This document shows, in pieces, positions 5,350 to 34,380 of a stretch of DNA of 36,809 nt. The stretch lies in IMG/VR virus record IMGVR_UViG_3300032218_000799, positions 1 to 36,809 of that record; one strand, 5' to 3'. A program made the position numbers and the translations under genes. Below the pieces are notes generated by a model, which was not told the origin of the DNA, searched no databases, and saw nothing but the letters and a program-made list of their open reading frames with translations. Each line of letters begins with the position of its first letter. The first letter of the stretch is position 1. Source of the stretch: a virus. Lineage: Duplodnaviria > Caudoviricetes.

Positions 5350-6239
5350 GTACCTTTGTAAATATCATAGATGAAACAGCACTTGCTTTGACTGGTTATA
5401 CCAATCGTCAAGATCAAGCTACATACCTTATATCTGATATGACTTCAACGGCTACTACTTTTGTAGTAGCCGATGGAACTGTTCTCACTCGTGGATTAGT
5501 TGAAATAGATGATGAATTGATATGGGTAGATTCTTTTGATCGCACAAATAACACAGCAACAATTCCATCATATGGTCGTGGGTTTCGTGATACCACAGCA
5601 ACAACTCATACTGCCGGTACTCGCGTAACCATTACTCCTTCTTTCCCAAGATCAGTAATTAGACGAAATGTTAATCTAGCTATTGATGCGCTTTATCCTG
5701 ATTTGTTTGGTGTTTATTATACAACTTTTACTTTTCAAGCAGCGGTAACTACCTATGTACTTCCACAAGAAGCCATTGATGTTCTTGGTGCTGCGTGGCA
5801 AACCATCGGCCCATCTAAAGAATGGCTACCTATCCGGCATTACCGAGTAGATCGTATGGCTAACCCTACCTATTGGGGTAGTGGAAAAACCATCTCTATC
5901 CGTGAAGGTATTATTCCTGGTCGTACTGTACAAATTACTTATACCAAAAAGCCAACCACACTTACTTATGATTCAGATGATTTTGCATCGTTAACTGGTT
6001 TGCCAGATTCAGCTCGTGAAGTTGTTGTCCTTGGTGCTGCATACCGTACAGCAATGTACTTAGATATGGGTAGGGTGCCAGCACAGACAGCTGAAGCGGA
6101 TTCCCAAAGCCAATCAGATCCTATTGGATCTGCTACCAATATTGGAAGATCAATACAACAGCTTTACCAGCAACGCCTTATGATAGAAATACGTCGTTTG
6201 CAAGAACAATATCCGCCTAGAACCCATTACACAAGCTAA
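5346..6239 (+). CDS. Putative tail adaptor (tail tubular protein A-like)
   Basis: Size and position upstream of a nozzle-like gene; ITYTKKPTTL..D..GLPDSAREVVVLGAAYR C-terminal pattern. Confidence 0.55.
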   Translation: MSTFVNIIDETALALTGYTNRQDQATYLISDMTSTATTFVVADGTVLTRGLVEIDDELIWVDSFDRTNNTATIPSYGRGFRDTTATTHTAGTRVTITPSFPRSVIRRNVNLAIDALYPDLFGVYYTTFTFQAAVTTYVLPQEAIDVLGAAWQTIGPSKEWLPIRHYRVDRMANPTYWGSGKTISIREGIIPGRTVQITYTKKPTTLTYDSDDFASLTGLPDSAREVVVLGAAYRTAMYLDMGRVPAQTAEADSQSQSDPIGSATNIGRSIQQLYQQRLMIEIRRLQEQYPPRTHYTS

Positions 6240-15171: not shown

Positions 15172-15329
15172 ACGAAACAATTATTGTAAACAATGACGCA
15201 GCATTGGTAAAGCGTTTGGATGAAGCTTGGGCCATTGTTGATAAACAGAAATTAGAACTTGCAGACTTAAAAGCACAGGTTAAAATCCTTAAAGAAGTTC
15301 TTAAAGAAGCTAACGATTATAGCTACTGA
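15168..15329 (+). CDS. 53-aa coiled-coil mini-protein (not in ORF track)
   Basis: MNETIIVNND...; ATGA and TGATG overlaps. Confidence 0.65.
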   Translation: MNETIIVNNDAALVKRLDEAWAIVDKQKLELADLKAQVKILKEVLKEANDYSY

Positions 15330-15700
15330 TGGATACTAAGCCTGATCTGGCTGTAGTTCTTGAACATTATGGCATAAGGATTTTGCACCGGCATGGTTGG
15401 ATACCTTGCAAATGCATCATCCATGATGATAGCCACGCAAGTGCAGCTTACAATTTGGACAAACAAAACTACCATTGTCTTGTTTGCAATATCTTTGGTG
15501 ATGTGTTTGAAGTAGTCGCCCATATGGAGAACATTAAGGAGTTTAGAGATGTTAAACGTAGAGCAGAAGAAATCGCTCACGGAAGCAGCAGAGAGGTATC
15601 ACGCCAATCTGACTCCAATGGCAGCCTCTTACCTAGAGGCGCGAGGAATAACAGAGGAAGTAGCAGTCAAGTACCTTCTTGGAAGCGTCGTGGAGCCTAG
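15329..15700 (+). CDS. DNA primase zinc-binding (CHC2) subunit
   Basis: CIIHDDSHASA...YHCLVC..GDVF. Confidence 0.88.
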   Translation: MDTKPDLAVVLEHYGIRILHRHGWIPCKCIIHDDSHASAAYNLDKQNYHCLVCNIFGDVFEVVAHMENIKEFRDVKRRAEEIAHGSSREVSRQSDSNGSLLPRGARNNRGSSSQVPSWKRRGA

Positions 15701-16184
15701 TGCTGGTCACGAACATTCAGTTGGTAGGTTGTCTATCCCATATCAAACACCTACTGGTGTGGTGGGTATGAAGTTCAGGACCATAGATGATACTCCGCCA
15801 AAGTATCTCTACCCTACGGGTCAGAAAGTGGGCTTGTTTAATGTCAATGACCTGCATATATTTAGCAACACTATTGCTATTTGTGAAGGGGAGATTGACA
15901 CAATTATTCTTTCAGGATTGGTGGGGATACCAGCGGTAGGCGTTGCAGGGGTATCGCAATGGAAGCCTTGGTTCCCAAAATTATTTGAAGGCTATGGGCG
16001 GATCTTTATCTTTGCAGATAATGATGTTAAAGAAGATGGGCGCAATCCTGGACAGGAGCTTGCTAAGAGGATCAAGGAAGATTTAGATCATGCTACGGTA
16101 GTTATGTTGCCGGACAATCAAGATGTAAACGATGTGTTCTTAGCCACAGGTAAAGAGTGGTTTAATGATAGAGTTAGCGTATGA
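15549..16184 (+). CDS. dnaG: DNA primase catalytic TOPRIM subunit
   Basis: YLEARGI, ICEGEIDT, FADND, DVND; own AAGGAG RBS at 15536-15541. Confidence 0.9.
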   Translation: MLNVEQKKSLTEAAERYHANLTPMAASYLEARGITEEVAVKYLLGSVVEPSAGHEHSVGRLSIPYQTPTGVVGMKFRTIDDTPPKYLYPTGQKVGLFNVNDLHIFSNTIAICEGEIDTIILSGLVGIPAVGVAGVSQWKPWFPKLFEGYGRIFIFADNDVKEDGRNPGQELAKRIKEDLDHATVVMLPDNQDVNDVFLATGKEWFNDRVSV

Positions 16185-17744: not shown

Positions 17745-18205
17745 TGGCTGAACCAATCCGCCAAGTTGGTGGTGATGGTACCCGTGAGCAGTTAGTTGCC
17801 AGCAAACTATCTGAGATGTTTAATTGGGATTTCTTTCCTACGCCACGTTATTACTTTATAGATTTTTTGGTAAACATTAATCATGGTAATGGCTACGCCA
17901 ATTACATTGGTGGCTTAGAAGTTAAGTGGTTGAACAGGCCAGCAAATTCTGAAGTTAAATTTCCTTATCAGAAGTTGCAGCAGATATGGTTAACTGAACC
18001 AGCAACTGATAGACCAGATGCCTACAATCGTATTGTCATACGTTACAAGGATGGTTTATTGGTTATGCCAGCTTATGCTTTACGCTGCTTAGATCCTATC
18101 TACGGTTTAACTCGTGTTGATACCAACGAACATGATTTCAACGTACACTTTAATGCCACCATAGATTTCCCACAGTATCTATTGCCGGTGGTTATCAATG
18201 AGTAA
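17741..18205 (+). CDS. Putative PD-(D/E)XK-family nuclease
   Basis: RE...IDF...LEVK pattern. Confidence 0.5.
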   Translation: MMAEPIRQVGGDGTREQLVASKLSEMFNWDFFPTPRYYFIDFLVNINHGNGYANYIGGLEVKWLNRPANSEVKFPYQKLQQIWLTEPATDRPDAYNRIVIRYKDGLLVMPAYALRCLDPIYGLTRVDTNEHDFNVHFNATIDFPQYLLPVVINE

Positions 18206-18854
18206 CTGGCTAGATGAGGCTACCGATATAGCTTCACAGGTAGCTCGTGTGGTTCATCGTAAGTACAATACTTATTTTGATGTGTCGGATGTGCGCCAAG
18301 AATTATTGGTGTGGATCTTGCGCCGTGAAAGTAAGGTTCGTGTATGGCTAGATCCTAGCCTTACGATAGAAGAATATCGTGGTGGCGTAAAACAATTAGG
18401 TAAGACGCTATCTCGCCAGGCAGATAAGTATTGTCGCAAGCGTAAGGCTCAATTCCTGGGCTATGCAGTTGAAGATGAGGCGTATTACTCGCCACTTACT
18501 TTATCCGAACTGCTGCCATTCGTATGGGCTGATGTTGTTGCTACAGCTGATACAACCAAGCCACGTGTATCTGGTGGTGGTGCGCCGGCAGAAGGTGGCA
18601 ACTATGTAGTACAATTAATTGATATACGGAAAGCTATCGCTAAGTTAGATGAGATGGATAGGGATGTGCTTCAACTTAAATTTGAAAATCAACTTACCTT
18701 TAGTCAAGTTGCAGAAGAACTCGGAGTGAGTGATACTACTGCTCATAGAAAAGTAGATGGTGCGTTACGTAGATTGAATAACCACCTTGGTGGTCAGTCA
18801 CCGTTTACTGATGAGATACCAGAGGATCATGTGGTAGAGGTAGAAGAAGAATAG
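18198..18854 (+). CDS. RNA polymerase sigma-factor-like protein (region 4 HTH)
   Basis: DVRQELLVW (region 2-like); LTFSQVAEELGVSDTTAHRKVDGALRRL HTH. Confidence 0.8.
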   Translation: MSNWLDEATDIASQVARVVHRKYNTYFDVSDVRQELLVWILRRESKVRVWLDPSLTIEEYRGGVKQLGKTLSRQADKYCRKRKAQFLGYAVEDEAYYSPLTLSELLPFVWADVVATADTTKPRVSGGGAPAEGGNYVVQLIDIRKAIAKLDEMDRDVLQLKFENQLTFSQVAEELGVSDTTAHRKVDGALRRLNNHLGGQSPFTDEIPEDHVVEVEEE

Positions 18855-20466: not shown

Positions 20467-20495
20467 AACATAATAAAATACCCCTAGATTGTCAA
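20467..20495 (-). promoter_or_regulatory. SigA-type leftward promoter for the whiB operon
   Basis: TTGACA (20495-20490), 17-nt spacer, TATGTT (20472-20467). Confidence 0.7.
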
Positions 20496-20514
20496 ACATC
20501 TAGGGGTATTATTT
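20473..20514. terminator. Terminator-like palindrome overlapping that promoter
   Basis: 13-bp inverted repeat AATACCCCTAGAT/ATCTAGGGGTATT flanked by A/T tracts. Confidence 0.7.
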
Positions 20515-20640: not shown

Positions 20641-20719
20641 CACTTTCACCATGATACATCTCTACTTCCTGCCAATATTCACACTTGATACAGTCGCATA
20701 TCCGGTAATCGTGTTTCAT
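20633..20719 (-). CDS. 28-aa Cys mini-protein
   Basis: MKHDYRICDCIKCEYW...; overlaps both neighbours. Confidence 0.45.
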   Translation of the reverse strand: MKHDYRICDCIKCEYWQEVEMYHGESDE

Positions 20720-21105
20720 TCGTCATCCCCACAATCGCATAAGTGACCGCACGTATAGCAGACATAAGCGCCGGTCAGATAAGTACGATAGCCATATGAA
20801 CGGGTACCATCGGAATTAATTTCGTACTTTCTTCCGCTGCTATCCACGCGTGGACAATCATCATATGGGAATTGTTCTTGCTGCTCACACTCACACCAAT
20901 TAAATTTTTCTACTTGCGAGGCGTGAGTGAGTTCCGCCATATCCTGCCAAGAATAAGATTCCTGGCTTGGATCTTGCGGATCTATAATATCGTCCGTCCG
21001 CCGTATCGTTCCTCTAGGCGAAAATATATTGGTCGCATGCTCCGCACCTACCAAAATATTTTGGACATTTTTTTGTAATTTGTCTAATCTGTCTAGTTTT
21101 CTCAT
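20716..21105 (-). CDS. Early hypothetical protein, Cys-rich C-terminus
   Basis: TGGAAGG motif before ATG 21105; CEC...CYTCGHLCDC. Confidence 0.7.
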   Translation of the reverse strand: MRKLDRLDKLQKNVQNILVGAEHATNIFSPRGTIRRTDDIIDPQDPSQESYSWQDMAELTHASQVEKFNWCECEQQEQFPYDDCPRVDSSGRKYEINSDGTRSYGYRTYLTGAYVCYTCGHLCDCGDDE

Positions 21106-21192
21106 GTTGAATCCTTCCAAGGTATCTAGTCTGACCTTAATCTAAGGCCAGATAACCGGACAGGATGCGAGATCCTGCCCGATTATCCGGTA
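21106..21192 (-). repeat. Early intergenic two-hairpin element D
   Basis: Long stem 21148-21190, second stem 21130-21152, TGGAAGG at 21119-21113. Confidence 0.75.
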
Positions 21193-21579
21193 TTAGCTGT
21201 CGGTATCTGTAGCTTGATCTAATAGTGCAGCGATCAGATCCCGTACACTTTCAACGGCGGACGCGTGCGCTTCATCCATCCGGTTGAAATTGTAACGCGT
21301 GGCCGATACTTTGCCAGCTAATCGGCTAACGTCAGTCTGAGAGCTTGAGTATTCAAAGTGAATCCCGATAGTGCCGGACTCTTGAACTGTACACGTGGCA
21401 ATAATTGACCGATAAGCCTTTTCTATCTTGTCGTGATAGGTGTAAACCTTGACACGGTAATTCTCCGGTGTAGTCCATGTCTCCGTTATCTTGCGCCGTG
21501 CGTCATTCTTAAATATCTCGTGGGATATTTCAGAAGTTACTTCCGGCGCTTGATCTTGCTTAGTTGTTGTCTTATTCAT
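21193..21579 (-). CDS. Early hypothetical protein
   Basis: 128 aa; TGGAAGG motif before the ATG. Confidence 0.7.
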   Translation of the reverse strand: MNKTTTKQDQAPEVTSEISHEIFKNDARRKITETWTTPENYRVKVYTYHDKIEKAYRSIIATCTVQESGTIGIHFEYSSSQTDVSRLAGKVSATRYNFNRMDEAHASAVESVRDLIAALLDQATDTDS

Positions 21580-21662
21580 GTTTATTCCTTCCATCCTTGT
21601 AACGATTACAAGGCCACCGGATAGGGGTTAGCCCTATCCGATAGTCCGGCAACAGTTAGCGT
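21580..21662 (-). repeat. Early intergenic two-hairpin element C
   Basis: Stems 21612-21646 and 21595-21613; TGGAAGG at 21593-21587. Confidence 0.75.
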
Positions 21663-22250
21663 CTATGCGGTCCGCATCGGCATCAGTAACACGGTCCATT
21701 TAATCGGGTCCGCTGCAAGCTCTGCGAGTAGTGGTTTATTCTCCGCTGTGAATTTCAAGACAAGCGGTTTAGCCTTGTCTATTCCTGGCAACTTAGCTAT
21801 ATCTGCCAAGAAGGCCGGATTGACCGCCATTCTTTCCACCGGATTAAATTCCGTTGGGATCAGTTGCTCATACGGTGGGAAAGTGCCATCAAAGGCCAGA
21901 AAAGTAATCTCGCCGGTGTCGGTGGATATAGTTACCTTACTTTCATTAATCGTAACCGTGACGCGTGGATTAATCGCGCGTCCGGTGAGTGGCTTAATGA
22001 ATGAGCGGATATTTTTTACGTCATCACGGTTTATATCAATGACGAAACTTTCCGCTGGTAGTGTCTCAAGATTATCGCCGGATAGTCTAGCGATATGCAA
22101 ACGGTAGCGATCAGTTGCAACGGCGATCAATTCTCCGGCCTTGTATTCTAGGTGAACGCAAGCCAACATTGGGAAATTCTTATCCGTTGCGAGTACCGTG
22201 CCAGTTAACATATTATCAAGATCCGGCGCGTTGATTGTGAATGTATTCAT
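21663..22250 (-). CDS. Truncated DNA polymerase III beta-clamp-like protein
   Basis: VATDRYRL, GTFPPYEQLIP, NPAFLAD, LLMPMR motifs; only 195 aa. Confidence 0.85.
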   Translation of the reverse strand: MNTFTINAPDLDNMLTGTVLATDKNFPMLACVHLEYKAGELIAVATDRYRLHIARLSGDNLETLPAESFVIDINRDDVKNIRSFIKPLTGRAINPRVTVTINESKVTISTDTGEITFLAFDGTFPPYEQLIPTEFNPVERMAVNPAFLADIAKLPGIDKAKPLVLKFTAENKPLLAELAADPIKWTVLLMPMRTA

Positions 22251-22337
22251 GTTATTTTTACCCTTCCATAGGTTTATTCTGATCCTAATTTAGGACCAGA
22301 CCACTAGACAGGGCATGCCCTGTCCAGCAGTCCGGCA
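22251..22337 (-). repeat. Early intergenic two-hairpin element B
   Basis: Stems 22296-22335 and 22279-22299; TGGAAGGG at 22268-22261. Confidence 0.75.
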
Positions 22338-22487
22338 CTACTTGAGCAGCGGATCTATATTACTCCACGTCCATCCGTTACCTGTCCACCAAACATGCGT
22401 GGCGATTAGATAAATTCCGATAAGTAACGCGGTCCAGAATATGACGCGCGTTAAGGTCCGGACACGGTAATAGTTGCGTGATCTCAT
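22338..22487 (-). CDS. 49-aa single-pass membrane protein
   Basis: Basic N-terminus plus TM segment VIFWTALLIGIYLIA; ATGA overlap. Confidence 0.65.
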   Translation of the reverse strand: MRSRNYYRVRTLTRVIFWTALLIGIYLIATHVWWTGNGWTWSNIDPLLK

Positions 22488-22903
22488 GCGCCGGCCTTTG
22501 CTCGTTCTATCTGGCATCCATGACATGGACACGCGCTAATTATTTCCACGCGTTGCGCTTGTAATTCTTTCCGTACCGTTGCACTATTTGGGAATCTGAA
22601 CGCATCCACCAAGTTACCGAACTTACAGAAGTACGCTAGAGAATACTCGCGTCCGTCCGAATCGTTGAATCCGGCGCGCTGCGTGGAAGTGATTACTACC
22701 CCACCGACACTATGTAACACTCTGAATCCCGTAACACGAGATCCAAAAAATTTCATAGTGCTAGGGGAGAAATAATACGTATTTAATTCCGTCAATATTC
22801 CGGCGGTTGTAGTCCGGTGATAATCCACCGGCCTACCGTTGCAGCCGTTGCACGTACACGGGAAACTAGGTATCTCGGTCCTGCTTGCTTGATCTGTATT
22901 CAT
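22484..22903 (-). CDS. Early hypothetical protein with terminal CxCxGC motifs
   Basis: CTCNGC...YFSPSTMKFFGSRV...CPCHGC. Confidence 0.75.
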   Translation of the reverse strand: MNTDQASRTEIPSFPCTCNGCNGRPVDYHRTTTAGILTELNTYYFSPSTMKFFGSRVTGFRVLHSVGGVVITSTQRAGFNDSDGREYSLAYFCKFGNLVDAFRFPNSATVRKELQAQRVEIISACPCHGCQIERAKAGA

Positions 22904-22994
22904 AATTTATTACCCTTCCATAGGTTATTTATTCCGGCTAATCACCGGCCACCGGCCAGAATATCGCTACTCTGGCCGATAGTCAACGATTAGA
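22904..22994 (-). repeat. Early intergenic two-hairpin element A
   Basis: Stems 22947-22984 and 22934-22948; TGGAAGGG at 22920-22913. Confidence 0.75.
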
Positions 22995-23372
22995 CTACGC
23001 GTCCGCCATCAATTCGCCCAAGGTATTGGGCGAGTCTGCAGATATTGGGTCGGTACTCGTTACGTCAAACACGTAACGCCAAGAGAAGCGCATCCGTTCG
23101 CTAGTACCTTCGGCATCCGCCATCATGCCCATAGGCACCAATATCGCTAGGCCTTTAGATCCTTTCCGGACAATTCTTCCGGCCTTGCGCCATTCATGGA
23201 ATCCGGCGCAATTGGTGGCGCTTGGATCTTGCGAGAGTATCGCATAACAATTCTTGGGAGAGAATCGGCCTAGTAATCTGAAAGGTATTTCAGCTCCGGC
23301 GCTCTCCATTGCATCCGCTGCAATTCTTAGCTCTTGGATAAATTGTGCCTTGTCTTGCTTGGATCTTGCCAT
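22995..23372 (-). CDS. ArdC-like N-terminal ssDNA-binding domain protein (anti-restriction candidate)
   Basis: FSPKN..IL.Q.P.AT..AGFHEWRKAGRIVRKGSKGLAILVP...VFDVTST. Confidence 0.85.
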   Translation of the reverse strand: MARSKQDKAQFIQELRIAADAMESAGAEIPFRLLGRFSPKNCYAILSQDPSATNCAGFHEWRKAGRIVRKGSKGLAILVPMGMMADAEGTSERMRFSWRYVFDVTSTDPISADSPNTLGELMADA

Positions 23373-23373
23373 G

Positions 23374-23547
23374 TTATGCACCAGCCTTCGGTGCCGGATT
23401 AATTGAGATTAGATTGAGCGGATCGGCACAGTTAGCGCATGTTGCATGGGCCCACGTTATGACCAGATCATGTTTTAACGTGTAAGTAACTGACGCGTCA
23501 CAATTGGAACACGTTAGATAGTGTTCCCACCAGATTATTTTATTCAT
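23374..23547 (-). CDS. First early gene: 57-aa Zn-ribbon protein (not in ORF track)
   Basis: MNKIIWWEHYLTCSNC...CANC...KAGA; TGGAAGGG motif. Confidence 0.7.
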   Translation of the reverse strand: MNKIIWWEHYLTCSNCDASVTYTLKHDLVITWAHATCANCADPLNLISINPAPKAGA

Positions 23548-23601
23548 AATTTATTACCCTTCCAAGGTGTCTTACTTGTTGCATCCTTTGCAACATGTCG
23601 G

Positions 23602-23631
23602 ACGATACGCGCAAGAATTAGCCCGTGTCAA
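23602..23631 (-). promoter_or_regulatory. Major leftward early promoter
   Basis: TTGACA (23631-23626), 18-nt spacer, TATCGT (23607-23602). Confidence 0.8.
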
Positions 23632-23764
23632 GCTATTTAAGGTGAACAATAGATGAACAATATTAAACACGCTCAAAATTAGACAAAATAGGCGCGTGTG
23701 TATACTTGACAAGATTACAGGGCACCGGCGCTACCTGTAACGGTGGCAAGAATTAGCCCATGTC
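23611..23764. repeat. 19-bp direct repeat GCAAGAATTAGCCCRTGTC (23611-23629, 23746-23764)
   Basis: 18 of 19 positions identical; first copy covers the promoter spacer and most of the -35. Confidence 0.8.
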
Positions 23765-23874
23765 TTACCCTTAGCCGGTGTCTAAAAGTGTCTTAGATTG
23801 AATCCTCAGGACGATAATTCTAAGCGTTCGGGTTTATTGTCCAGTCTATGAGCTTAAAAGGTACTCGCTGCAAT

Positions 23875-24055
23875 TGTTGCGCCGGTGGTGTTGGATCGTG
23901 TCGGTGGTGGTTGCATCCGGTGTCGGTGCATCCGATGGGTGATCGGTGTCTGGTTGGTGCTGGTGGTGCATCCGGTGGGTGGTGTGCTATCGGGTCGGTG
24001 CCGGTGGTGTTAGCTTGGTGGCGGTGGGGATCGGTGGTGTGCTATTGGATCGGCC
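23875..24055. repeat. G/T-skewed low-complexity tract of iterated (C)GGTG(GTG)
   Basis: Roughly 20 GGTG units, TGCATCCG three times, GGTGGTGTGCTAT twice; very few A. Confidence 0.8.
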
Positions 24056-24655
24056 TAAGAGTATCGGCCTTGATAGTTTCAATAAATACGCCGGACAACA
24101 TGGAAGAACGGCCTACTTACCACGCAACACGGCCCGATACCTACACGATACGACTCGCAACACGCTCCGAACGGCGCACAATATCCGGACGGTTGGACAT
24201 TTCGCCCGTTTCCGTCCAAGTCTAAATGTCAGGTCAACCCCTAGGGTTTTAATGCCGGCGCACTCTTATACGTACTATCAACCAAAGTATTTTTTCTAAA
24301 TATAGCTGCCCAAACGGGGTAATATAAAATAAATCTTTTTGCTATAACTAGTATAAAATACTGACTATAAACAATGTGATGAACATCACACACTAAAGGA
24401 CGGGATAAAACCCAAATCCACCACCTTAGTATATATATACGGTAAAAAAAACCGCCCGTTTTAGTTCGGCTCTAGGCAATCTGAGCCTCAAGCGAAGTTG
24501 CCGTTGAGCCGAACGTAACAGCAGCCTTTAGGGCTGCTATTAATTGTAAGAGTTTAGGCGCTTAATGCGCCCCCCAAAAATACCCAAAGTATTACCCACA
24601 GGACGCTTTGCGGTGGGTGAGAACTAATCTTACCCACAGGAAAGATTTAACCCAA

Positions 24656-26572
24656 ATGACTAAACCACCGAGCAATGCGTATAAGCTGGCACCAAATGCC
24701 ACCTTATCCGCACCAGAGGCAAAGAAGCGCCTTCTCGCGCTGATTGACGATGGTGTTACGATTGAAGATGCTTGTCGCGCTGTAGGTAAGTCTGTCAAGT
24801 CTTACGAGTATTATCGCTCTAGCGATCCGCAATTTAAAGAAGCGATTGACCTTTCGCGCATTATTAAAAAACGCAAAGGTGTAGTTAGCGATGATGACGC
24901 GTCAATATCTTTTGAAGATTTCCGATTAAAGTATTTAAACTCCCAAACCTTTGACCATCAAAGAAATATAACAAGCCTTCTTGAAGAAGGCGAACCGGCA
25001 TGGCTGCATGGCAATATGACCTATGAAAAAGGTTTTAAGAATTACGTTCTTGTCAATATGCCACCCGAACACGCTAAGTCTATGACGGTGAGTATTGACT
25101 ATGTGGTGTATAGGATTGTGATCGACCCAAATGTGAGAATCAAGTTAGTGTCCAAGACTCAAGCAATGGCAAAAGAATTTCTTTATGCTATTAAGCAAAG
25201 GTTGACTTCACCCCAATGGGCAGAACTTCAAAGGCGTTACGCCCCTGTAGAGGGCTTTAAAGCCACATCTGATAAGTGGTCAGCAGATACTATTTACCTT
25301 GAACGTGAATCTGGTGAGAAAGACCCTACTGTTCAAGCACTAGGTATTGGCGGACAGATTTATGGCGCTCGTGCCGACCTTATTATTCTTGATGACTGTG
25401 TAACCCTTGCCAATGCTGGCGAGTATGAAAAGCAAATACGCTGGATACAGCAAGAAGTTCTTACGCGTGTTGGACCCACAGGCAAAATTTTAGTAGTAGG
25501 TACACGCGTTGACCCAATGGATCTCTATAGAGAGATGCGAAACCCAGAGCGTTACCCAGATAATGTTAGTCCTTGGACATACTTAGCTATGCCAGCTGTC
25601 CTTGAGTTTAAAGATAATCCAAAGGATTGGATTACTTTGTGGCCAAAGTCTGATCGGCCTTGGGATGCTGACGCAACAGAACCAGATGAGAACGGATTGT
25701 ACCCACGCTGGTCTGGCGAACACCTACGTCGTAGGCGTGGTCTTATTGACCCAAAGACTTGGGCAATGGTTTACCAGCAGCAAGACGTTGAATCATCGGC
25801 TATCTTTTCCCCAGAGTGTGTACGTGGATCTGTAAGCGGTATGCGTTCTATCGGACCACTTATACCTGGCGCACCAGGGCATCCAGAGTCTTTAGCTAGT
25901 CAATACATAGTTGCATCAATGGACCCTGCCATGTCAGGTGACACATTCTCTGTAGTTATATCAGGAGATAAAACCACAGGCAAGCGTTATTTGCTTGAAG
26001 CATCAAGGATGCCAGCACCTACGCCACAAATGATACGTGATCTTATTTTTGCTTGGACAGATAAATATAAAGTTAATGTATGGGTAATTGAAAAGAACGC
26101 CTTTCAGTTGTTCTTAACCCAAGACGAACAGATTAACAAGTTTCTTGCTACACGCGGTATCCGCCTTGTTCAACATTACACCGGCGGTAATAAGATGGAT
26201 CTTGAATTTGGCGTTGCATCATTAGCGCCACTCTTTGGATCTGTAGATAATCATGGTAAATATTTAAAGAACAATCTTATTGAATTACCACGAGCAGACA
26301 ATGAACACATTAAATCGTTGATTGAGCAGTTAATTACTTGGTCAGCTGGAACAAAGAACAAGCAAGACGGACCAATGGCATTGTGGTTTGCTGAAACCCA
26401 GATGCGTGATTATATCAACCAAATGGGTTCATATGGTCAAACATTTGTTAAGAACCAATTTGCTACACGATCACAAATAGCAAACCGTAAGGTTGTCAAC
26501 TTGGAAGAATACGCAAGACTACAAGAAAAATTAGCAGTGAACGGGGGTACCTTCTATGGCAGTAGATATTAG
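24656..26572 (+). CDS. terL: Terminase large subunit with N-terminal HTH extension
   Basis: PPEHAKS Walker A variant, GARADLIILDD Walker B, VVGTR coupling motif, MDPA nuclease motif, QDGPMALW; AGGAAAG RBS. Confidence 0.92.
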   Translation: MTKPPSNAYKLAPNATLSAPEAKKRLLALIDDGVTIEDACRAVGKSVKSYEYYRSSDPQFKEAIDLSRIIKKRKGVVSDDDASISFEDFRLKYLNSQTFDHQRNITSLLEEGEPAWLHGNMTYEKGFKNYVLVNMPPEHAKSMTVSIDYVVYRIVIDPNVRIKLVSKTQAMAKEFLYAIKQRLTSPQWAELQRRYAPVEGFKATSDKWSADTIYLERESGEKDPTVQALGIGGQIYGARADLIILDDCVTLANAGEYEKQIRWIQQEVLTRVGPTGKILVVGTRVDPMDLYREMRNPERYPDNVSPWTYLAMPAVLEFKDNPKDWITLWPKSDRPWDADATEPDENGLYPRWSGEHLRRRRGLIDPKTWAMVYQQQDVESSAIFSPECVRGSVSGMRSIGPLIPGAPGHPESLASQYIVASMDPAMSGDTFSVVISGDKTTGKRYLLEASRMPAPTPQMIRDLIFAWTDKYKVNVWVIEKNAFQLFLTQDEQINKFLATRGIRLVQHYTGGNKMDLEFGVASLAPLFGSVDNHGKYLKNNLIELPRADNEHIKSLIEQLITWSAGTKNKQDGPMALWFAETQMRDYINQMGSYGQTFVKNQFATRSQIANRKVVNLEEYARLQEKLAVNGGTFYGSRY

Positions 26573-28808: not shown

Positions 28809-29264
28809 ATGCCACAGGCAGCAAAGCCAGCTATGACTTCAGGCCCAGGGGCTATGAGCCAAAGAACTGATGGCGGACCAGCATCAAAGCAAGCACAACG
28901 GTATATCTCAGGTATGCCTAATTACGGCGATGGTCAACAACTGATGGATCTACAAGCATCAGCACCAATGGCTAAAGCACCAGAAACACCAACAATGCAA
29001 CAACCAATGGCATCTAATGCAGGTAATGGGCAAACAATCCAACCTGATGTTACGTCATTGACGGCACCTACAGCTAGACCACTTGAGCCAGTTACTGCTG
29101 GTGCAGCAAGTGGTCCTGGTCCTGGACCAGAAGTATTAAACCTTGGTAATGCTGATACGTCACAATATCAAACTGCCAAAGAACAAATGCAAGCTATGGC
29201 TGCATCTCCAAACGCTTCCCCTGCATTAAGAGCATTGGCACAAAGATTTAATCAGGTGTATTAA
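28809..29264 (+). CDS. Pro/Ala/Gln-rich virion-associated protein
   Basis: SGPGAMSQRTDGG and PTARPLEPVTAGA..GPGPGPEVL motifs; GAGGGAG RBS. Confidence 0.65.
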   Translation: MPQAAKPAMTSGPGAMSQRTDGGPASKQAQRYISGMPNYGDGQQLMDLQASAPMAKAPETPTMQQPMASNAGNGQTIQPDVTSLTAPTARPLEPVTAGAASGPGPGPEVLNLGNADTSQYQTAKEQMQAMAASPNASPALRALAQRFNQVY

Positions 29265-32200
29265 TGACAAAAGAAAATTTTAATAAAACATTAGCAGATC
29301 ATCCTGCCCTTGCCTCTAATCCAGCTTTAGCTAGCGATGTTTTAAATTCAAACAACCAAGATGCTTCTGCTACCACAGTTCTTCATGCTAACAATGTATC
29401 ATCATTTCAACAAGCATTAGCAGAAAATCAAGCACAAAATGGTAATGAAAGTATATGGCAAAGTGTATTTCATGGAGCAGCCAAAGCTGTTGGTGGCGCA
29501 CTTAATTGGTTAAGCAAACCACTTAACGAAATACAACGTGATTATAAATTTATTCATTCTGTTTATGTACGTCATGGAATTTTGCAAGGATTTGCTGCAA
29601 CTGCTGGTATAGCAGGTGGAGCTGTACTTGGTTCATTTTTTGGACCAGAAGGAACAGCTATTGGAATTGATCTGGCTGGCAGTCTTGAGCGTAATTTAAT
29701 TGGTCGTTTTGACGTTTCTCATCGTGATTCATTTAACGATTCAAACAATCCAAATTATAAAGTTTCAGCCGGACGAGATTTTGCTAATGCTGTTGCTCAT
29801 GTACCAGGACTTGGTGATTTACGCAATACAGATCATGGCCTTGGTAAAGTAATATCGGGAACTACTGATGCAGCATTTGATTTTATGCTTGATCCTTTTG
29901 TAATTGGTCTTAAAGTAAAAGCAGGAGTTAAGCAAGGCAAATATCTTGAAGTTAAAACCGAAAAAGGCGTAAAAGTATTAACAACTAAGTTACCTTTTAA
30001 AAATGCTTTTCCTGCCTTACAAGGTTTTTTAGAACGCAATAGCCTTCAAACTTTTGGTTCATCTGAGCAATTAAATAATCTTTACAAAGCTGGTAAAAAT
30101 CCAAGCATACTTGACCGAACATTTGGTGCATCTGGAAAAACATATGTTCGCAATCTTGAAGATATTGCAAAAGATATAAATAGTGAAAATGGTTTGGCTA
30201 AAGTTGCAATTAAAAATCCTACTTTGCAAGAAATGCTACCATTTTTAAAAGAAGCTAAAGACAAAGTTGGCACTTTAACCGATCAAGATGTTCACCATGT
30301 TTTCTTGCAAACAATGGGAGATGTTCAATTTTCTCAAAACTATCTTTCTACAGTAAGCTCATTTGTACCATCACGTACTGTAGTTCGTGCTGCCTTATCT
30401 AAAGTATCTGACAAGTTGCGCCAATGGGACCCAAACGAAGAAACATATTTACGCACTAATCAAGCAAATTTCTTTTTGCCACGTTCTTCTAAAAAAGCAA
30501 TATATGCAGATGTAGTAGATCCTCAAACTGGTCAAATTTCAAAAGTTGTTCAATTAACTAATGAAAAACAAACTATTCTTCCAGTAGTATTTCAACCCTG
30601 GAACCCTGATGCATGGAAATCAGCTCTTGCTAGTAAGGTGCGTACATTTAGTGGCTACCTTCCATACTCTATTGATTCTAAAATGCTTGAACTTTCTAAT
30701 ACGCAATTTGATCCAGCAAACCCAACTGCACTTGTTGGCATTTATCGCATGGCCCGTTTTTCAATGTCAGATCAATTGGCAAAACAACGTGTTACAGAGT
30801 TTGCTACTGCTGGTGATGATATAAGCCAAAAAAGAAAAATTTATTCTGGCATTATAAATGAAATGCTTAAAGCAGCAGGTATTCCTGATGATACACAATT
30901 TATAAAATATATGCATGATCGCATTGGTCAATTTACAGAAGGCGATATAAGCAAAAATACATATGGTCTTGGTCATTATTCTGGTAGCAAAGTATCTGAA
31001 GGTACTTCAAATTTTGGAACATATAATCGTGCTTTATTTGAAGATCAAGCTGGCAATTTTAAATACCCAGATTTTCGTGAAGTTAAAACTGCTATGCGTA
31101 GCGTTGGAAAATATGGACAAATTTATGGCAAGATTGATAACTTTGCAGCTAACCATTATACGGACAGCGTATTTAAACCTTTAGCTTTGCTTACAGCAGG
31201 ATTTGGTTTGCGTATTGCTGCATCTGAATTGTTGCCAGCAGTATTTCGTTTTGGTACAATTGCAACAGCTAAATCAAAAATAGCTTCTGCTGCACAAAAA
31301 ATGAATTACAAATTAATCCCAGGTGAAGATGCTGCTATTCTTGAAAATGCTATTCATGCTGTGTCGCAAGGCACAAATCCTGCAAAGTTTCTTTCCGATG
31401 CTGCTAATGCAGTTAAAGGAAAAACTGTTAAAAAATTGTATGCAAAAGGGCTTAGTGCATTAGCTACTGAATCCGACCTTGAACTTGCTGCTAATATTGC
31501 TATTAGCACTCGTGGTCATATGGGAACAGGAGCAACCCTTACAGGGTACGGTATCCCAGTTGAACAACAAGAATTTCATCGCCAAGTTGCACAAATTGTA
31601 AGCCAACAAGCGCAACGTAGTGGCGGATTAAACAATACTCAAATTCAAGAAAAACTACGTGAAGCTTACCCAGAATTAGCAGACAAAAAACGTCCAATTG
31701 TTGGAACTGGTCAATTCAGTCATTTTATTAATTCAGATCCAGCTTTTGATTTGCATTATTATACTGAGCTTTCCAAAACAACTGTTGGAATATCTAGGCA
31801 ACAAATTGCTTCTGATCTACATGAACAATTTGCCAAAGGCAAATCTATCCAACAAGCATACGATAATGTTCGTGCTTTAGAAGAAAAAAGACTTCGTGAT
31901 GTAAACTACCAACCATATGCTCGTGAACGTAAATTGCTTGCTGGTTATCAAGAAGATCCAGCAAAGTTTGCAGCAGATCGTACCGATAGCACATTAAATT
32001 TATTTGTTGGTGCAGATGGAAAAACTGTTAATAAAGATTTTCTTCAAAAAATTGCTAATGGAGAAAAGCCAACATTAAATGCTATACGCAATCTTGAAGT
32101 TGAAGCAAAACCACTTGCAGTAGCTGGACAACGTTACACTCAAATGCCTGGTGAAAATTTGCAACAACGCGTTACCAATTTTGGTTTTCATCATGTCATT

Positions 32201-33904
32201 GATCCAATTATTAATAATCTTTCACGTGAACCTTTATTCTTTAACCACGTTAAGAATGAAATGCGTTCACTTCAGTTTGCTCTTGAAAGTGGCAAACTAG
32301 ATGAAGGAGAAGCTTTACGTATTGCCATGACTCGTGCATCATTTTCAATGGTGCCACAGATCCACAATACTGCCCTTAAAACCCAGTTCTCGGTACTGGC
32401 CCGTAACTACCTACCATTTTGGTTTGCCCAAGAGCAAGCCATGCGCCGCGCTGGTAGCTTGATTGCTACCAATCCGGCAGCACTACGGCAGTACCAATTA
32501 ATCCAACAAGGATTAAATGATCCTGGTTTTGTTGAAGTAGATTCCAATGGTCAGAAGCATATAACACTTCCCGTCATAGGCGAAGCTGGAAGTATGTTTT
32601 TAAACGCTGCAAATGCCATAGGACTGCCTGTAGTGGGCGGTTTGCCTGTTACTGTCACCGGCGATTTACAGTCGCTTAAAACGGTTCTTCCAGAATTTAC
32701 GGCCCCTGGTATATCCCCATTTGTATCGGTAGCTGCTAATACCCTTGCTGCCTTTGACCCTACCTTTGATCGTGAAATTAAAAAGATTGTTGGTGGAGCA
32801 GGTTTTGGCAAAAGTTATTTTGACATATTAATGCCTAATACTGTTGCTCGTAGCGTATTCCATGCAGTTGATGCAAAAGATACTGAAACATCATTCTTTA
32901 ATGCAATCGTGGCATCAATTACTTCTGCTAGTTTTCATGGTCAAATACCACCATCTAATGCTACGGCACTTGTCAAGCAAGCTTTCTTAGATCGCATTAA
33001 AAATAATGCTAGATCAATTATGATGATGAAAGCAATCCTTGGTGCTGTTAGCCCATTAGCTCCGGCAGTAAGCCAAGAAGATCCAGGTTTGCGTCAAGAA
33101 TTTTACGATATACTCAAAAAGAAATCTCCTGTTACTGGCAAGCCAATGACATACCCTGAAGCACTTGATGAGTTTATTGCCAAACATGGAACCAACTCAA
33201 TTGGTTATACTATATCCCGATCAGTTGGTGCTGTTCCTGGTGTAACAGTTCCTTATACAAATAAAGCAATTGATTATATTGAAAATAATCAAAGTTTAAT
33301 TAAAGGTCAATACGGTGTAGGCGCTGCTTTCTTTATACCACAAGTAACAAGTGGTGGTGGTGATGCTCAAGCAATCCATGATGAAGTTATTAAAATGCAT
33401 CTTCGTGCTAGCAAAACACCGGATCAATTTCTTGCAAGTTATTATACGGCAGCTGGCAATAATTTTATTGCTGCTCAACGTGTTGGACACGATAAAGCCA
33501 TGAATGATCTTGCAAAAGCTGGCATATCACAAGCTGCTGAGCGTTCTTCATGGAACGCATTTATTACTGAATATGGAAAAATGAATCCAATTTGGTGGGA
33601 TGATTATGCAAGTACTGCTAAAAAGCATGTAGCTACAGAAGCATTTAGTAATTTTACCGCTATGTTTGCAAATAAAACTGATGCTCAAATAACTAAAGAA
33701 TATGGCGCACATGTTGTACCAATTAAAAATTTAGTAAATGATTGGAACCAACATCACAGCGCAGTTATTCAATTACGCGCAACTGGTGGAACTGAATATG
33801 TAAAAGCTGAAAACGATAATTGGCAAGCATATCTAAAAGATGTTGCAGATAAACAACCACAATTAAACACAGTTATTAATTCCGTATTTTCAAGGTTAGG
33901 ATAA
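29264..33904 (+). CDS. Large putative internal virion (ejection) protein
   Basis: 1546 aa, helical, with hydrophobic Gly/Ala segments; lies in the structural operon. Confidence 0.6.
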   Translation: MTKENFNKTLADHPALASNPALASDVLNSNNQDASATTVLHANNVSSFQQALAENQAQNGNESIWQSVFHGAAKAVGGALNWLSKPLNEIQRDYKFIHSVYVRHGILQGFAATAGIAGGAVLGSFFGPEGTAIGIDLAGSLERNLIGRFDVSHRDSFNDSNNPNYKVSAGRDFANAVAHVPGLGDLRNTDHGLGKVISGTTDAAFDFMLDPFVIGLKVKAGVKQGKYLEVKTEKGVKVLTTKLPFKNAFPALQGFLERNSLQTFGSSEQLNNLYKAGKNPSILDRTFGASGKTYVRNLEDIAKDINSENGLAKVAIKNPTLQEMLPFLKEAKDKVGTLTDQDVHHVFLQTMGDVQFSQNYLSTVSSFVPSRTVVRAALSKVSDKLRQWDPNEETYLRTNQANFFLPRSSKKAIYADVVDPQTGQISKVVQLTNEKQTILPVVFQPWNPDAWKSALASKVRTFSGYLPYSIDSKMLELSNTQFDPANPTALVGIYRMARFSMSDQLAKQRVTEFATAGDDISQKRKIYSGIINEMLKAAGIPDDTQFIKYMHDRIGQFTEGDISKNTYGLGHYSGSKVSEGTSNFGTYNRALFEDQAGNFKYPDFREVKTAMRSVGKYGQIYGKIDNFAANHYTDSVFKPLALLTAGFGLRIAASELLPAVFRFGTIATAKSKIASAAQKMNYKLIPGEDAAILENAIHAVSQGTNPAKFLSDAANAVKGKTVKKLYAKGLSALATESDLELAANIAISTRGHMGTGATLTGYGIPVEQQEFHRQVAQIVSQQAQRSGGLNNTQIQEKLREAYPELADKKRPIVGTGQFSHFINSDPAFDLHYYTELSKTTVGISRQQIASDLHEQFAKGKSIQQAYDNVRALEEKRLRDVNYQPYARERKLLAGYQEDPAKFAADRTDSTLNLFVGADGKTVNKDFLQKIANGEKPTLNAIRNLEVEAKPLAVAGQRYTQMPGENLQQRVTNFGFHHVIDPIINNLSREPLFFNHVKNEMRSLQFALESGKLDEGEALRIAMTRASFSMVPQIHNTALKTQFSVLARNYLPFWFAQEQAMRRAGSLIATNPAALRQYQLIQQGLNDPGFVEVDSNGQKHITLPVIGEAGSMFLNAANAIGLPVVGGLPVTVTGDLQSLKTVLPEFTAPGISPFVSVAANTLAAFDPTFDREIKKIVGGAGFGKSYFDILMPNTVARSVFHAVDAKDTETSFFNAIVASITSASFHGQIPPSNATALVKQAFLDRIKNNARSIMMMKAILGAVSPLAPAVSQEDPGLRQEFYDILKKKSPVTGKPMTYPEALDEFIAKHGTNSIGYTISRSVGAVPGVTVPYTNKAIDYIENNQSLIKGQYGVGAAFFIPQVTSGGGDAQAIHDEVIKMHLRASKTPDQFLASYYTAAGNNFIAAQRVGHDKAMNDLAKAGISQAAERSSWNAFITEYGKMNPIWWDDYASTAKKHVATEAFSNFTAMFANKTDAQITKEYGAHVVPIKNLVNDWNQHHSAVIQLRATGGTEYVKAENDNWQAYLKDVADKQPQLNTVINSVFSRLG

Positions 33905-33906
33905 AA

Positions 33907-34380
33907 ATGACTACTGGACCAACAGGATCTGGAAAAACTCCTACCCCTACAGTTTCAACTGGTAATTCTACAAGCATGACTGGTTACAAACCTGCACCTA
34001 TTCCAACTAAAAAAACTAAAGAACGTATTCCTACCTACACATCTGAATACTTTCAACCAGATATTAGTTCTACCCAGTTTGTAACTAACAGAGTTTACCA
34101 ATCGCTGCTTGGTCGCAATGCAACGCAAGATGAAGTTAACAAATACCACGAACAATTTTTAGCATATGCAAAAACGCATCCAACATTTACAAAACAAGCA
34201 ACTTACGATACAACCGGAGCAGTAACCCGTGATGTTACTGCTCAAAAAATGCCATTAAGCGAAACTGATTTTATTAGCAATGTAGTTCGTCAAGGTCCAG
34301 AAGCTAAAGGTTATGAAGCTGCAACTACATACTTTGATGCCATGCGTCAAGCAATGGGGCAGTTCCGAGGGGGTTACTAA
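33907..34380 (+). CDS. Putative internal virion protein
   Basis: VYQSLLGRNATQDE motif; coupled to neighbours. Confidence 0.55.
   Translation: MTTGPTGSGKTPTPTVSTGNSTSMTGYKPAPIPTKKTKERIPTYTSEYFQPDISSTQFVTNRVYQSLLGRNATQDEVNKYHEQFLAYAKTHPTFTKQATYDTTGAVTRDVTAQKMPLSETDFISNVVRQGPEAKGYEAATTYFDAMRQAMGQFRGGY

What the first reader, a model, noticed from the sequence alone, without database searches (positions are those of the whole stretch)
21106..23600. Array of covarying two-hairpin RNA elements punctuating the earliest genes
Seen: all four intergenic gaps (22904-22994, 22251-22337, 21580-21662, 21106-21192) share one architecture on the minus strand: stop codon, long hairpin, short hairpin, (CCTW)TGGAAGG(G), ATG. 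The long stem has conserved arms with compensatory changes (GACUAUCGG/CCGGUGGCC twice, GACUGCUGG/CUAGUGGUC, GAUAAUCGG/CCGGUUAUC) and variable inner stems. Its G-U pairs work only on the transcribed strand, pointing to selection on RNA structure. None has a U-tract. The first gene has only the short hairpin (23577-23595), starting at about the predicted +1. Inference: the polycistron is cut at or after the long stem into separate mRNAs, each with a 5' hairpin and identical leader, analogous to the RNase III sites of the T7 early region. It could be an undescribed cis-RNA motif or a self-processing element. The shared leaders (24 bp identical at 22897-22920 and 23541-23564) could also allow gene-cassette shuffling.
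Basis: partly seen in the sequence, partly recalled or inferred. Interest (0 to 1): 0.85.

Follow-up and report, generated by a model that had tools for sequence, protein, structure and literature searches.

The report
Two-state RNA connectors between phage genes
Four gaps between the likely early genes of a phage that probably infects actinobacteria hold the same covarying RNA element, a long hairpin overlapped by a short one, which recurs in related phages; it is likely cut by the host enzyme RNase III so that each gene's message would start with a protective hairpin, but no cutting has been shown.

Summary
All four gaps over 50 nt in the leftward small-gene operon carry one element (fold z -3.1 to -5.1 on the transcribed strand; no Rfam match). 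A covariance model finds these four copies and hits 35 of 47 terminase-selected relatives, always in the same block; all 24 stem pairs covary.

Two features were missed. First, the short hairpin overlaps the lower half of a ~24-bp stem. The two folds exclude each other, are nearly equal in energy, and both are conserved; the short hairpin starts at a fixed position beside the core CUAUC/GGURG (66 of 69). Second, copy 1 and 12 of 69 homologs hold a sigma70-type promoter inside the stem, predicted to start about 2 nt before the short hairpin. Cultured Streptomyces podoviruses share the geometry with a different sequence.

Best reading (0.55): host RNase III-type cut-and-cap sites, like T7's early signals but yielding 5'-hairpin-capped mRNAs. 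Not shown: any RNA end, the enzyme, or the cut register. A resemblance to host pre-rRNA stalks proved no better than chance. U-tract terminator, ribozyme and all-promoter readings are disfavoured. New variant of a known kind.

The parts
23602..23631 (-). Predicted first promoter of the operon (TTGACA, 18 nt, TATCGT); predicted +1 about 23594-23596
   Evidence: an equivalent site with a hairpin at the start in 17 of 20 first promoters read
23577..23595 (-). Short hairpin at the predicted 5' end of the primary transcript
23374..23547 (-). Gene 1, 57 aa, Cys-rich, no family hit
22995..23372 (-). Gene 2, 125 aa, weak ArdC N-terminal domain match (E 0.002, below the Pfam cut-off)
22934..22993 (-). 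Element 1: long stem about 22993-22938 (core 5' arm starts at 22984; position 8 at 22948); alternative short hairpin 22948-22934
22958..22986 (-). Predicted sigma70-type promoter inside element 1 (TTGACT, 17 nt, TATTCT); predicted +1 about 22950-22951
22484..22903 (-). Gene 3, 139 aa, weak DUF7447 match (below the cut-off)
22338..22487 (-). Gene 4, 49 aa, overlaps the gene 3 stop; its own stop codon forms the base of element 2
22278..22341 (-). Element 2: long stem about 22340-22291; alternative short hairpin 22300-22278; no promoter consensus
21663..22250 (-). Gene 5, 195 aa, DNA polymerase III beta-clamp-like (PF02767 E 9e-6, just under the cut-off; PHROG 947 E 1e-11; the top PHROG hit, 12598, is labelled RusA-like)
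21595..21655 (-). Element 3: upper stem 21645-21614 with a weak lower stem; short hairpin 21613-21595 (favoured in the intact RNA)
21193..21579 (-). Gene 6, 128 aa, no family hit; its stop codon forms the base of element 4
21130..21196 (-). Element 4: long stem about 21196-21143; alternative short hairpin 21152-21130; no promoter consensus
20716..21105 (-). Gene 7, 129 aa, no family hit
20467..20510 (-). Conventional U-tract terminator-like hairpin (20510-20477, both strands) closing the block, with a TTGACA-17-TATGTT promoter-like site starting in its loop (20495-20467)

Best explanation
The element is a conserved two-state RNA connector that likely acts as a cut-and-cap site for the host's RNase III in the phage's predicted early polycistronic mRNA. 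Shown from sequence: a ~24-bp irregular stem runs from about the upstream stop codon to 15-30 nt before the next start codon. Its upper 14-17 bp are near-perfect and carry the core CUAUC/GGURG with a U.G wobble. A mismatch or weak pair follows (position 8). The lower 3' strand can instead form a short hairpin that starts at position 8-9. Inferred: read-through RNA folds the long stem, RNase III nicks it at or just above the mismatch, the weak lower stem falls apart, and the short hairpin forms at or next to the new 5' end. That would shield the downstream message from 5'-end-dependent decay (RNase E, RNase J). If the nick is on the 3' arm, the upstream message would keep the upper stem as a 3' barrier. 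In about one element in six, a promoter built into the stem would start a transcript about 2 nt before the same short hairpin, so initiation and processing would give almost the same capped leader.
For: Location and shape. All 49 sense-strand CM hits in 870 kb of terminase-selected loci lie about 1-2.7 kb upstream of the terminase, on the small-gene strand. In 40 aligned elements 85.5% of cells are paired and all 24 pairs show two-sided changes; 0 of 500 shuffles reach this and slid controls give 36-48%. A strand-neutral finder gives G.U > A.C in 46 hairpins and the reverse in 10, of 68. Both alternative folds are kept. The lower stem pairs 6.8 of 9 positions with its own flank versus 4.8 in chimeras. 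A fragment starting at position 8 begins with a hairpin in 66 of 69 elements versus 42% of chimeras, and in 23 of 23 versus 43% in the set not chosen by pattern. First-base pairing jumps from 14-31% for starts at positions 2-7 to 83% at position 8 (77 elements). The two folds lie within 3 kcal/mol in 46 of 69. Loop-to-position-8 distance is 14-17 nt in 61 of 69, above the 11-bp minimum helix of E. coli RNase III (PMC1540722, passages). The short hairpin behaves like a 5' cap: 17 of 20 first promoters have a hairpin of -8 kcal/mol or better starting 6-9 nt after the -10 box (read), and the 12 promoter-type elements place +1 about 2 nt before it. In six Streptomyces phages, 14 of 15 anchored elements start the short hairpin at an A.C or A.G mismatch 14-18 nt from the loop. 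S. coelicolor RNase III cuts an intergenic hairpin at an internal loop (PMC10126417, passages). Single nicks stabilise T7 early RNAs (PMC5389636, passages). RNase E and RppH need single-stranded 5' ends (PMC3997798, passages). The phage encodes no RNase III domain (record 88% complete).
Against: No RNA end or cleavage was observed. The register cannot be fixed: the E. coli rule (no G-C or C-G at proximal-box positions 2 and 4) is met at three registers in the freshwater set (68, 63 and 60 of 69). Only the third also fits all 15 Streptomyces elements, and it would cut 4 nt into the short hairpin. The T7 sites share GUGGCC with the 3' arm, but in the T7 register the cut would fall after position 14 and destroy the short hairpin, and that register passes the rule in only 26 of 69. 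The resemblance to host-type pre-rRNA stalks is no better than chance (2456 and 4305 of 5000 shuffles reach the score). Automatic location of the short hairpin without an anchor was only weakly enriched (8 of 37 versus 19% shuffled; 12 of 33 versus 20%). The core sequence is not shared with the Streptomyces phages (the CM misses them), although their hosts' stalks resemble the freshwater ones. 12 of 47 relatives have no CM hit. RNase III in the actual host was not checked, and the host is inferred.
Confidence: 0.55

Rival explanations
1. Ribosome-gated switch or insulator without a dedicated cut. A ribosome reaching the upstream stop codon opens the lower stem and flips the RNA to the upper-stem-plus-short-hairpin fold. 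The fold would then decide whether the junction is cut, paused or Rho-terminated, or would simply block exonucleases from both sides.
For: The real upstream stop codon starts 8-9 nt before the core in 26 of 69 elements, i.e. it is the base of the lower stem. The folds are nearly equal in energy. In intact RNA the lower stem dominates in 39 and the short hairpin in 25 of 69.
Against: The stop lies further away or was not found in the other 43. Neither hairpin covers the Shine-Dalgarno site, which lies 15-30 nt before the start in nearly all. A passive insulator would not need a conserved helix sequence with fixed wobble positions. This reading is compatible with the best explanation rather than exclusive of it.
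Confidence: 0.17
2. U-less terminator or pause site coupled to re-initiation: the long hairpin ends the upstream transcript and a promoter in or near it (host sigma, or the phage sigma factor at 18198-18854) restarts transcription with the short hairpin as 5' cap.
For: 12 of 69 elements, including copy 1, carry T(T/G)GAC, 17-18 nt, TANNNT with a fixed middle length of 20-22 nt. 9 of 10 TTGAC elements versus 5 of 59 others have the -10 box (Fisher p 3e-7). Positions 5 and 6 are mostly pyrimidine then purine, as at start sites. U-less terminators are reported in actinophage phiC31 (recalled, not from a call). The window has a terminator-promoter overlap at 20467-20510.
Against: 0 of 57 other elements have TANNNT at that place, and their middle length runs from 14 to 28 nt, too variable for one sigma spacer. 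Copies 2-4 have no consensus promoter, so termination there would starve genes 5-7. 0 of 69 have a U-tract, while this phage uses U-tract terminator-like sites elsewhere. Covariation of the lower stem is unexplained.
Confidence: 0.17
3. Self-cleaving ribozyme of a new class.
For: A compact, covarying two-state fold between genes. An earlier unchecked note (e1-6248213) reports similar hairpins alternating with hammerheads in another phage group.
Against: All conserved positions are base-paired and the loops vary freely. No Rfam ribozyme in the window or in 42 related loci. A hammerhead-core scan of all phage loci gave one hit, on the strand opposite the early genes and far from an element.
Confidence: 0.04
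4. DNA-level element: a single-stranded-DNA hairpin promoter (N4-like, recalled) or a recombination repeat that shuffles gene cassettes.
For: Gene content behind the elements varies widely: 18 families plus 4 singletons follow 46 elements, and some families occur both as first gene and behind an element. There is a 24-bp identical leader pair in the window.
Against: Wobbles favour the RNA-like strand, not the template strand. No RNA polymerase motif was found in the three largest proteins, and the Atlas gives no polymerase look-alike for the 1546-aa protein (a weak negative). Copies differ too much in the inner stems to be good crossover sites. Shuffling could be a by-product whatever the RNA does.
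Confidence: 0.05

Closest known systems
RNase III processing signals of phage T7 early mRNA (R1.1 type)
   Same: Imperfect hairpins between genes of an early polycistron, a sequence-conserved upper stem, and a mismatch region in mid-stem. Four T7 early-region hairpins carry the same GUGGCC 3'-arm letters. R1.1 is a single-strand cut that matures and protects T7 mRNAs (PMC8708148, PMC5389636, passages).
   Different: The upper stem is longer (14-17 bp to the mismatch). The lower stem is exchangeable for a short hairpin that would cap the downstream 5' end, whereas T7's nick leaves a 3' hairpin on the upstream RNA. A subset has a host-type promoter inside the stem. The CM does not hit the T7 region.
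Bacillus phage SP82/SPO1 early-region RNase III sites
   Same: Gram-positive phage early genes cut by host RNase III (SP82 named as an RNase III target in PMC4838370, passages; the early-region and 5'-stabiliser details are recalled). Many relatives here have purine-rich leaders.
   Different: No sequence comparison was made. A two-state overlapping hairpin is not known to me from those sites (recalled).
Streptomyces coelicolor rpsO-pnp intergenic hairpin (AbsB/RNase III site)
   Same: An actinobacterial intergenic hairpin cut at an internal loop (PMC10126417, passages).
   Different: That site has a 4x4 loop, is cut mainly on the 5' side and destabilises pnp mRNA. Here the imperfection is mostly a 1x1 mismatch and the predicted result is stabilisation.
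5'-terminal stem-loop mRNA stabilisers (ompA type)
   Same: A hairpin with at most 1-3 unpaired 5' nucleotides, which hinders RppH and RNase E (PMC3997798, passages).
   Different: Here the hairpin is hidden in an alternative long stem until a cut or an internal start exposes it.

Membership tests
RNase III processing signal (T7 early type) | Lies between genes of a polycistronic early transcript | tested here: met
   All four gaps over 50 nt; CM hits confined to this block in relatives. 'Early' is inferred from position, host-type promoters and gene content.
RNase III processing signal (T7 early type) | Helix of about two turns with at least 11 bp on one side of the cut | tested here: met
   24 covarying pairs; 14-17 nt from loop to position 8 in 61 of 69; rule from PMC1540722
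RNase III processing signal (T7 early type) | Mismatch or internal loop near the cut | tested here: met
   Positions 8, 9, 13 and 14 unpaired in 23, 14, 21 and 20 of 40
RNase III processing signal (T7 early type) | Proximal-box positions 2 and 4 free of G-C or C-G in one defined register | tested here: inconclusive
   Three registers pass in the freshwater set (68, 63 and 60 of 69); the Streptomyces set passes 4, 7 and 15 of 15 at the same registers. The rules come from the E. coli and Aquifex enzymes.
RNase III processing signal (T7 early type) | Pair pattern matches the host's own pre-rRNA stalks | tested here: not met
   Best windows score -0.5 and -3.5; 2456 and 4305 of 5000 shuffles reach them. 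This is a supporting test, not a defining rule.
RNase III processing signal (T7 early type) | rnc-dependent cleavage giving 5'-monophosphate ends | not testable with these tools
   No RNA run was listed for the region
Intrinsic (Rho-independent) terminator | Hairpin followed by a U-tract | tested here: not met
   0 of 69 have 5 or more T in 8 nt after either hairpin; the scan lists none at the four elements
Sigma70/SigA-type promoter | TTGACN, 17-18 nt, TANNNT | tested here: met
   Copy 1 and 12 of 69 elements only; not met for copies 2-4 and 57 of 69; activity untested
Self-cleaving ribozymes (hammerhead, HDV-like, twister and others) | Conserved unpaired catalytic core or an Rfam match | tested here: not met
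Any Rfam 15 family | Score at or above the gathering threshold | tested here: not met
   0 hits in the window; best E 0.099 in the permissive scan, unrelated and below threshold
Single-stranded-DNA hairpin promoters (N4 type, recalled) | Template-strand hairpin and a virion RNA polymerase | tested here: inconclusive
   Wobbles favour the non-template strand; no polymerase motif by pattern search and none among Atlas neighbours; the large protein was not folded

The most novel reading that the evidence does not exclude
A translation-gated processing switch. The ribosome finishing the upstream gene flips a bistable RNA between an RNase III substrate and a capped, uncleavable fold, so the phage couples cutting of each junction to translation of the gene before it. 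The same module, by gaining a -35 and a -10 box inside the stem, doubles as a promoter that delivers the identical capped leader: a portable expression connector for a hypervariable gene array across actinobacterial podoviruses.
Probability: 0.15. Interest if true: 0.75.

Novelty: new variant of a known kind. Interest (0 to 1): 0.48.

Why it matters
The kind of signal is familiar from T7, and this scan holds 238 notes on hairpins between phage early genes, so the location alone is not surprising. What is distinctive is the design: two mutually exclusive folds both under selection, a 5' cap released at a fixed position, a promoter built into the same stem in a subset, and the same geometry with different letters in cultured Streptomyces phages. 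If RNase III cuts these sites, the roughly 70 freshwater and 15-23 Streptomyces variants form a ready natural substrate set for defining what actinobacterial RNase III recognises. The review PMC10126417 (passages) describes only a few mapped sites. They would also be candidate mRNA-stabilising parts for Streptomyces expression work.

Tried and rejected
Rfam: no match in the window or in 42 related loci, except one 16S-like fragment.

DNA and protein searches: blastn of the early region against GenBank phages found nothing. The beta-clamp-like gene gave one distant locus, which the CM does not hit. The bacterial-genome scan gave one contig, in a betaproteobacterial bin, which does not identify the host.

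RNA data: no RNA holder was listed for the region; this is not evidence either way.

Host pre-rRNA stalks: an eye-catching ACU/GGU likeness in 45 16S and 20 23S stalks from 78 probe-positive contigs failed a permutation test on one operon and was dropped. No mapped actinobacterial stalk cut could be placed on a sequence: PMC4681348 gives +52 for S. coelicolor and PMC4838370 gives 65 nt for B. subtilis (passages), but those operons were not available. The CM has no hit in 263 kb of rRNA-operon loci.

Weak or biased measures: locating the short hairpin without an anchor was noisy. The count of 188 G.U to 0 A.C is biased by the finder and was replaced by the strand-neutral count, whose control region held only 6 hairpins (16 versus 7) and is uninformative.

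Other leads: hammerheads in the same slot were not found. A virion RNA polymerase has no support. RNase III and RNase J in the likely host could not be looked up. Mycobacterial RNase E preference for cutting before C (recalled) was considered because position 8 or 9 is often C; it was rejected as the main nuclease because the site is helical and several short hairpins start with G, A or U.

Literature: ten searches listed no paper describing these elements. A cluster BF genome announcement (PMC9753666, term search) has no 'hairpin', 'intergenic' or 'terminator'. The library lacks most subscription papers and I saw no supplements, so absence from print is not established.
Full report
Setting. 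The window is a whole 36.8-kb virus record, estimated 88% complete. Its terminase (24608-26572) and portal have their closest cultured relatives among Streptomyces phages of the Beephvirinae, at 43-46% identity; only those and two uncultured records pass E 1e-20 for the portal. It encodes WhiB and a sigma factor. An actinobacterial host is therefore inferred, not shown. The finding lies in a leftward block of small genes next to the terminase, where the Streptomyces relatives carry their anti-restriction gene. I call it early by inference from position, host-type promoters and gene content.

Check of the observation. The arms, leaders and coordinates are as reported. Each gap folds far better than shuffles on the transcribed strand (z -3.1 to -5.1) and less well on the other (z -2.1 to -3.4). 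Rfam has no match. The four sites are the only gaps over 50 nt in the block.

Homologues. Two pattern scans gave 49 and 121 viral stretches, many of them chance hits. A scan that is independent of the RNA, using the terminase, confirmed 325 relatives and kept the best 80, at 79-94% identity. A hairpin-plus-start finder gave 285 candidates, 125 after removing those over 80% alike; 95 were from the window and uncultured contigs. Of these, 77 fitted a pair profile seeded on the window's core. I dropped 8 whose loop distance fell outside 14-20 as mis-anchored, leaving 69: 4 from the window, 19 terminase-selected, 21 pattern hits (selected on the core, so circular for core sequence) and 25 neighbours of pattern hits. 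An alignment of 40 (52 tried, 12 removed, mostly as misaligned) has 85.5% of cells paired and two-sided changes at all 24 pairs. None of 500 shuffles comes near, and slid controls give 36-48% (related sequences inflate such counts). The covariance model built from it finds the four window copies plus an antisense echo. In 870 kb of terminase-selected loci it makes 52 hits: 49 on the small-gene strand about 1-2.7 kb before the terminase and 3 antisense echoes (training sequences included). 35 of 47 loci with at least 2.6 kb upstream have a hit (near-duplicate genomes included). It has no hit in T7, in the Streptomyces phages, in one uncultured relative or in 263 kb of rRNA loci.

Anatomy. I number the conserved 3' arm 1-9 (CCGGUGGCC in copy 1). 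Positions 3-7 form the core 5'-CUAUC/GGURG-3': C-G in 35, U.G in 34, A-U in 36, U.G or U-A in 38 and C-G in 36 of 40. Above it the helix varies in sequence but stays paired. Position 8 is an A.C mismatch or a weak pair. Below it an imperfect lower stem continues to about position 18 and is specific to each element (6.8 of 9 pairs with its own flank, 4.8 in chimeras). Its base is the real upstream stop codon in 26 of 69 elements and lies a little further downstream of the stop in most others. The short hairpin uses the same 3' strand: it starts at position 8 in 61 and at 9 in 5 of 69, with varied first pairs. First-base pairing of a fragment jumps from 14-31% to 83% when the start moves to position 8. 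The long fold and the upper-stem-plus-short-hairpin fold differ by 0.5-3.1 kcal/mol in the four window copies and by 3 or less in 46 of 69. Unanchored attempts to find the short hairpin were much noisier. G.U exceeds A.C on the transcribed strand in 46 hairpins versus 10 with a strand-neutral finder. No element has a U-tract.

Promoters. Copy 1 contains TTGACT-17-TATTCT. Nine of 10 elements with TTGAC have a TANNNT box 16-18 nt on, against 5 of 59 others. Twelve of 69 are promoter-type with a fixed middle of 20-22 nt, and their predicted +1 at position 5-6 lies about 2 nt before the short hairpin. None of the other 57 has the box there, and their middles span 14-28 nt. The first promoter of the block has a hairpin at its predicted start in 17 of 20 loci (read). 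A hairpin-capped 5' end therefore looks like the common goal of three routes: first promoter, internal promoter and, by inference, processing.

Cultured relatives. In six annotated Streptomyces phages, 26 of 48 early gaps of at least 55 nt hold an ungapped long hairpin (23 non-redundant); 15 have an A.C or A.G mismatch over a G-C pair 14-18 nt from the loop, and in 14 of these the short hairpin starts at that mismatch. The core letters differ, so this is a shared design and not a demonstrated single sequence family.

Mechanism. Both exclusive folds are conserved, which is most simply read as before and after a cut. A ~24-bp irregular helix with a mid-stem mismatch between early genes is the classic substrate of RNase III. 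One 11-bp helix can specify a site, and loops or bulges can limit it to one nick (PMC1540722, passages). The Streptomyces enzyme cuts an intergenic hairpin at an internal loop (PMC10126417, passages). A structured 5' end hinders RppH and RNase E (PMC3997798, passages), and S. coelicolor has RNase J (PMC4681348, passages). The phage record has no RNase III domain. Any nick at or above position 8-9, on either arm, would leave the downstream RNA with a structured 5' end. The weak points are real. No RNA data were listed. The proximal-box rule (PMC1540722 passages; PMC3074117 passages and section 17) is met at three registers, and the only one that also fits all Streptomyces elements would cut into the short hairpin. 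The GUGGCC likeness to T7 sites (R1.1 cut at 5887 per PMC8708148, passages) points to a fourth register that would destroy it. A likeness to host-type pre-rRNA stalks failed a permutation test. I put RNase III cut-and-cap at 0.55, a ribosome-gated switch or insulator at 0.17, terminator plus re-initiation at 0.17, a DNA-level role at 0.05 and a ribozyme at 0.04.

Cassettes. Among the window and 37 related loci, the gene after an element belongs to 18 families plus 4 singletons. Families such as the beta-clamp-like gene occur first in some genomes and behind an element in others (automatic gene calls). The connectors thus sit in a hypervariable array; whether they drive the shuffling is untested.

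Novelty. The element is not in Rfam 15, and ten literature searches listed no description (open-access library only, no supplements seen). The scan's own notes have no look-alike sequence but 238 findings on this general theme (unchecked leads), which lowers surprise. One suggested looking for hammerheads in the same slot; none was found. Verdict: a real, clade-wide, apparently uncatalogued RNA element that most likely works like T7's early RNase III signals, with three added features: bistability, a released 5' cap and an embedded promoter. Membership as an RNase III site is unproven. New variant of a known kind; interest 0.48.

Noticed in passing
window 20467-20510, minus strand: A U-tract terminator-like hairpin whose loop holds TTGACA, followed 17 nt later by TATGTT: a terminator and a promoter-like site overlapped, ahead of the whiB block.
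   Followed up: no
window 29264-33904: A 1546-aa protein with no Pfam or PHROG hit. Atlas neighbours are unnamed clusters; the nearest named ones carry LPD38, LPD3 or MuF-C domains. Probably an internal virion or ejection protein; no polymerase motif found.
   Followed up: partly
window 23850-24060: A low-complexity stretch of imperfect direct repeats (TGGTGGTGCATCCG-like) between the first early promoter and the terminase; possibly a genome end or origin region.
   Followed up: no
window 23745-23760 and 23612-23627, minus strand: The sequence GGGCTAATTCTTGC occurs twice, once inside the spacer of the first promoter and once about 130 nt upstream; a possible operator or second promoter.
   Followed up: no
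window 22914-22924 and 23558-23566, minus strand: The CCT(A/T)TGGAAGG leader can form a weak 3-5-bp hairpin over its own Shine-Dalgarno sequence; absent from relatives with purine-only leaders.
   Followed up: no
L257 9026-9134 (Streptomyces phage Stella, OP751154 about 45525-45633, minus strand): A 109-nt stretch near the genome end scores 85 bits against the bacterial 16S rRNA model (positions 106-311); a decayed host rRNA fragment or a small RNA mimic.
   Followed up: partly
L259 (CAIVXR010000185.1): A contig with an 85%-identical terminase sits in a betaproteobacterial metagenome bin; most likely mis-binned phage DNA.
   Followed up: no
L010, L041, L043, L059, L137, L148 and others: Some relatives carry a third hairpin between the short hairpin and the ribosome-binding site.
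   Followed up: no
window 15329-16184 and 34420-34784: The primase is split into a zinc-finger ORF and a TOPRIM ORF, as in the Streptomyces relatives. A 137-nt direct repeat (82% identical) lies in the gene at 34380.
   Followed up: no
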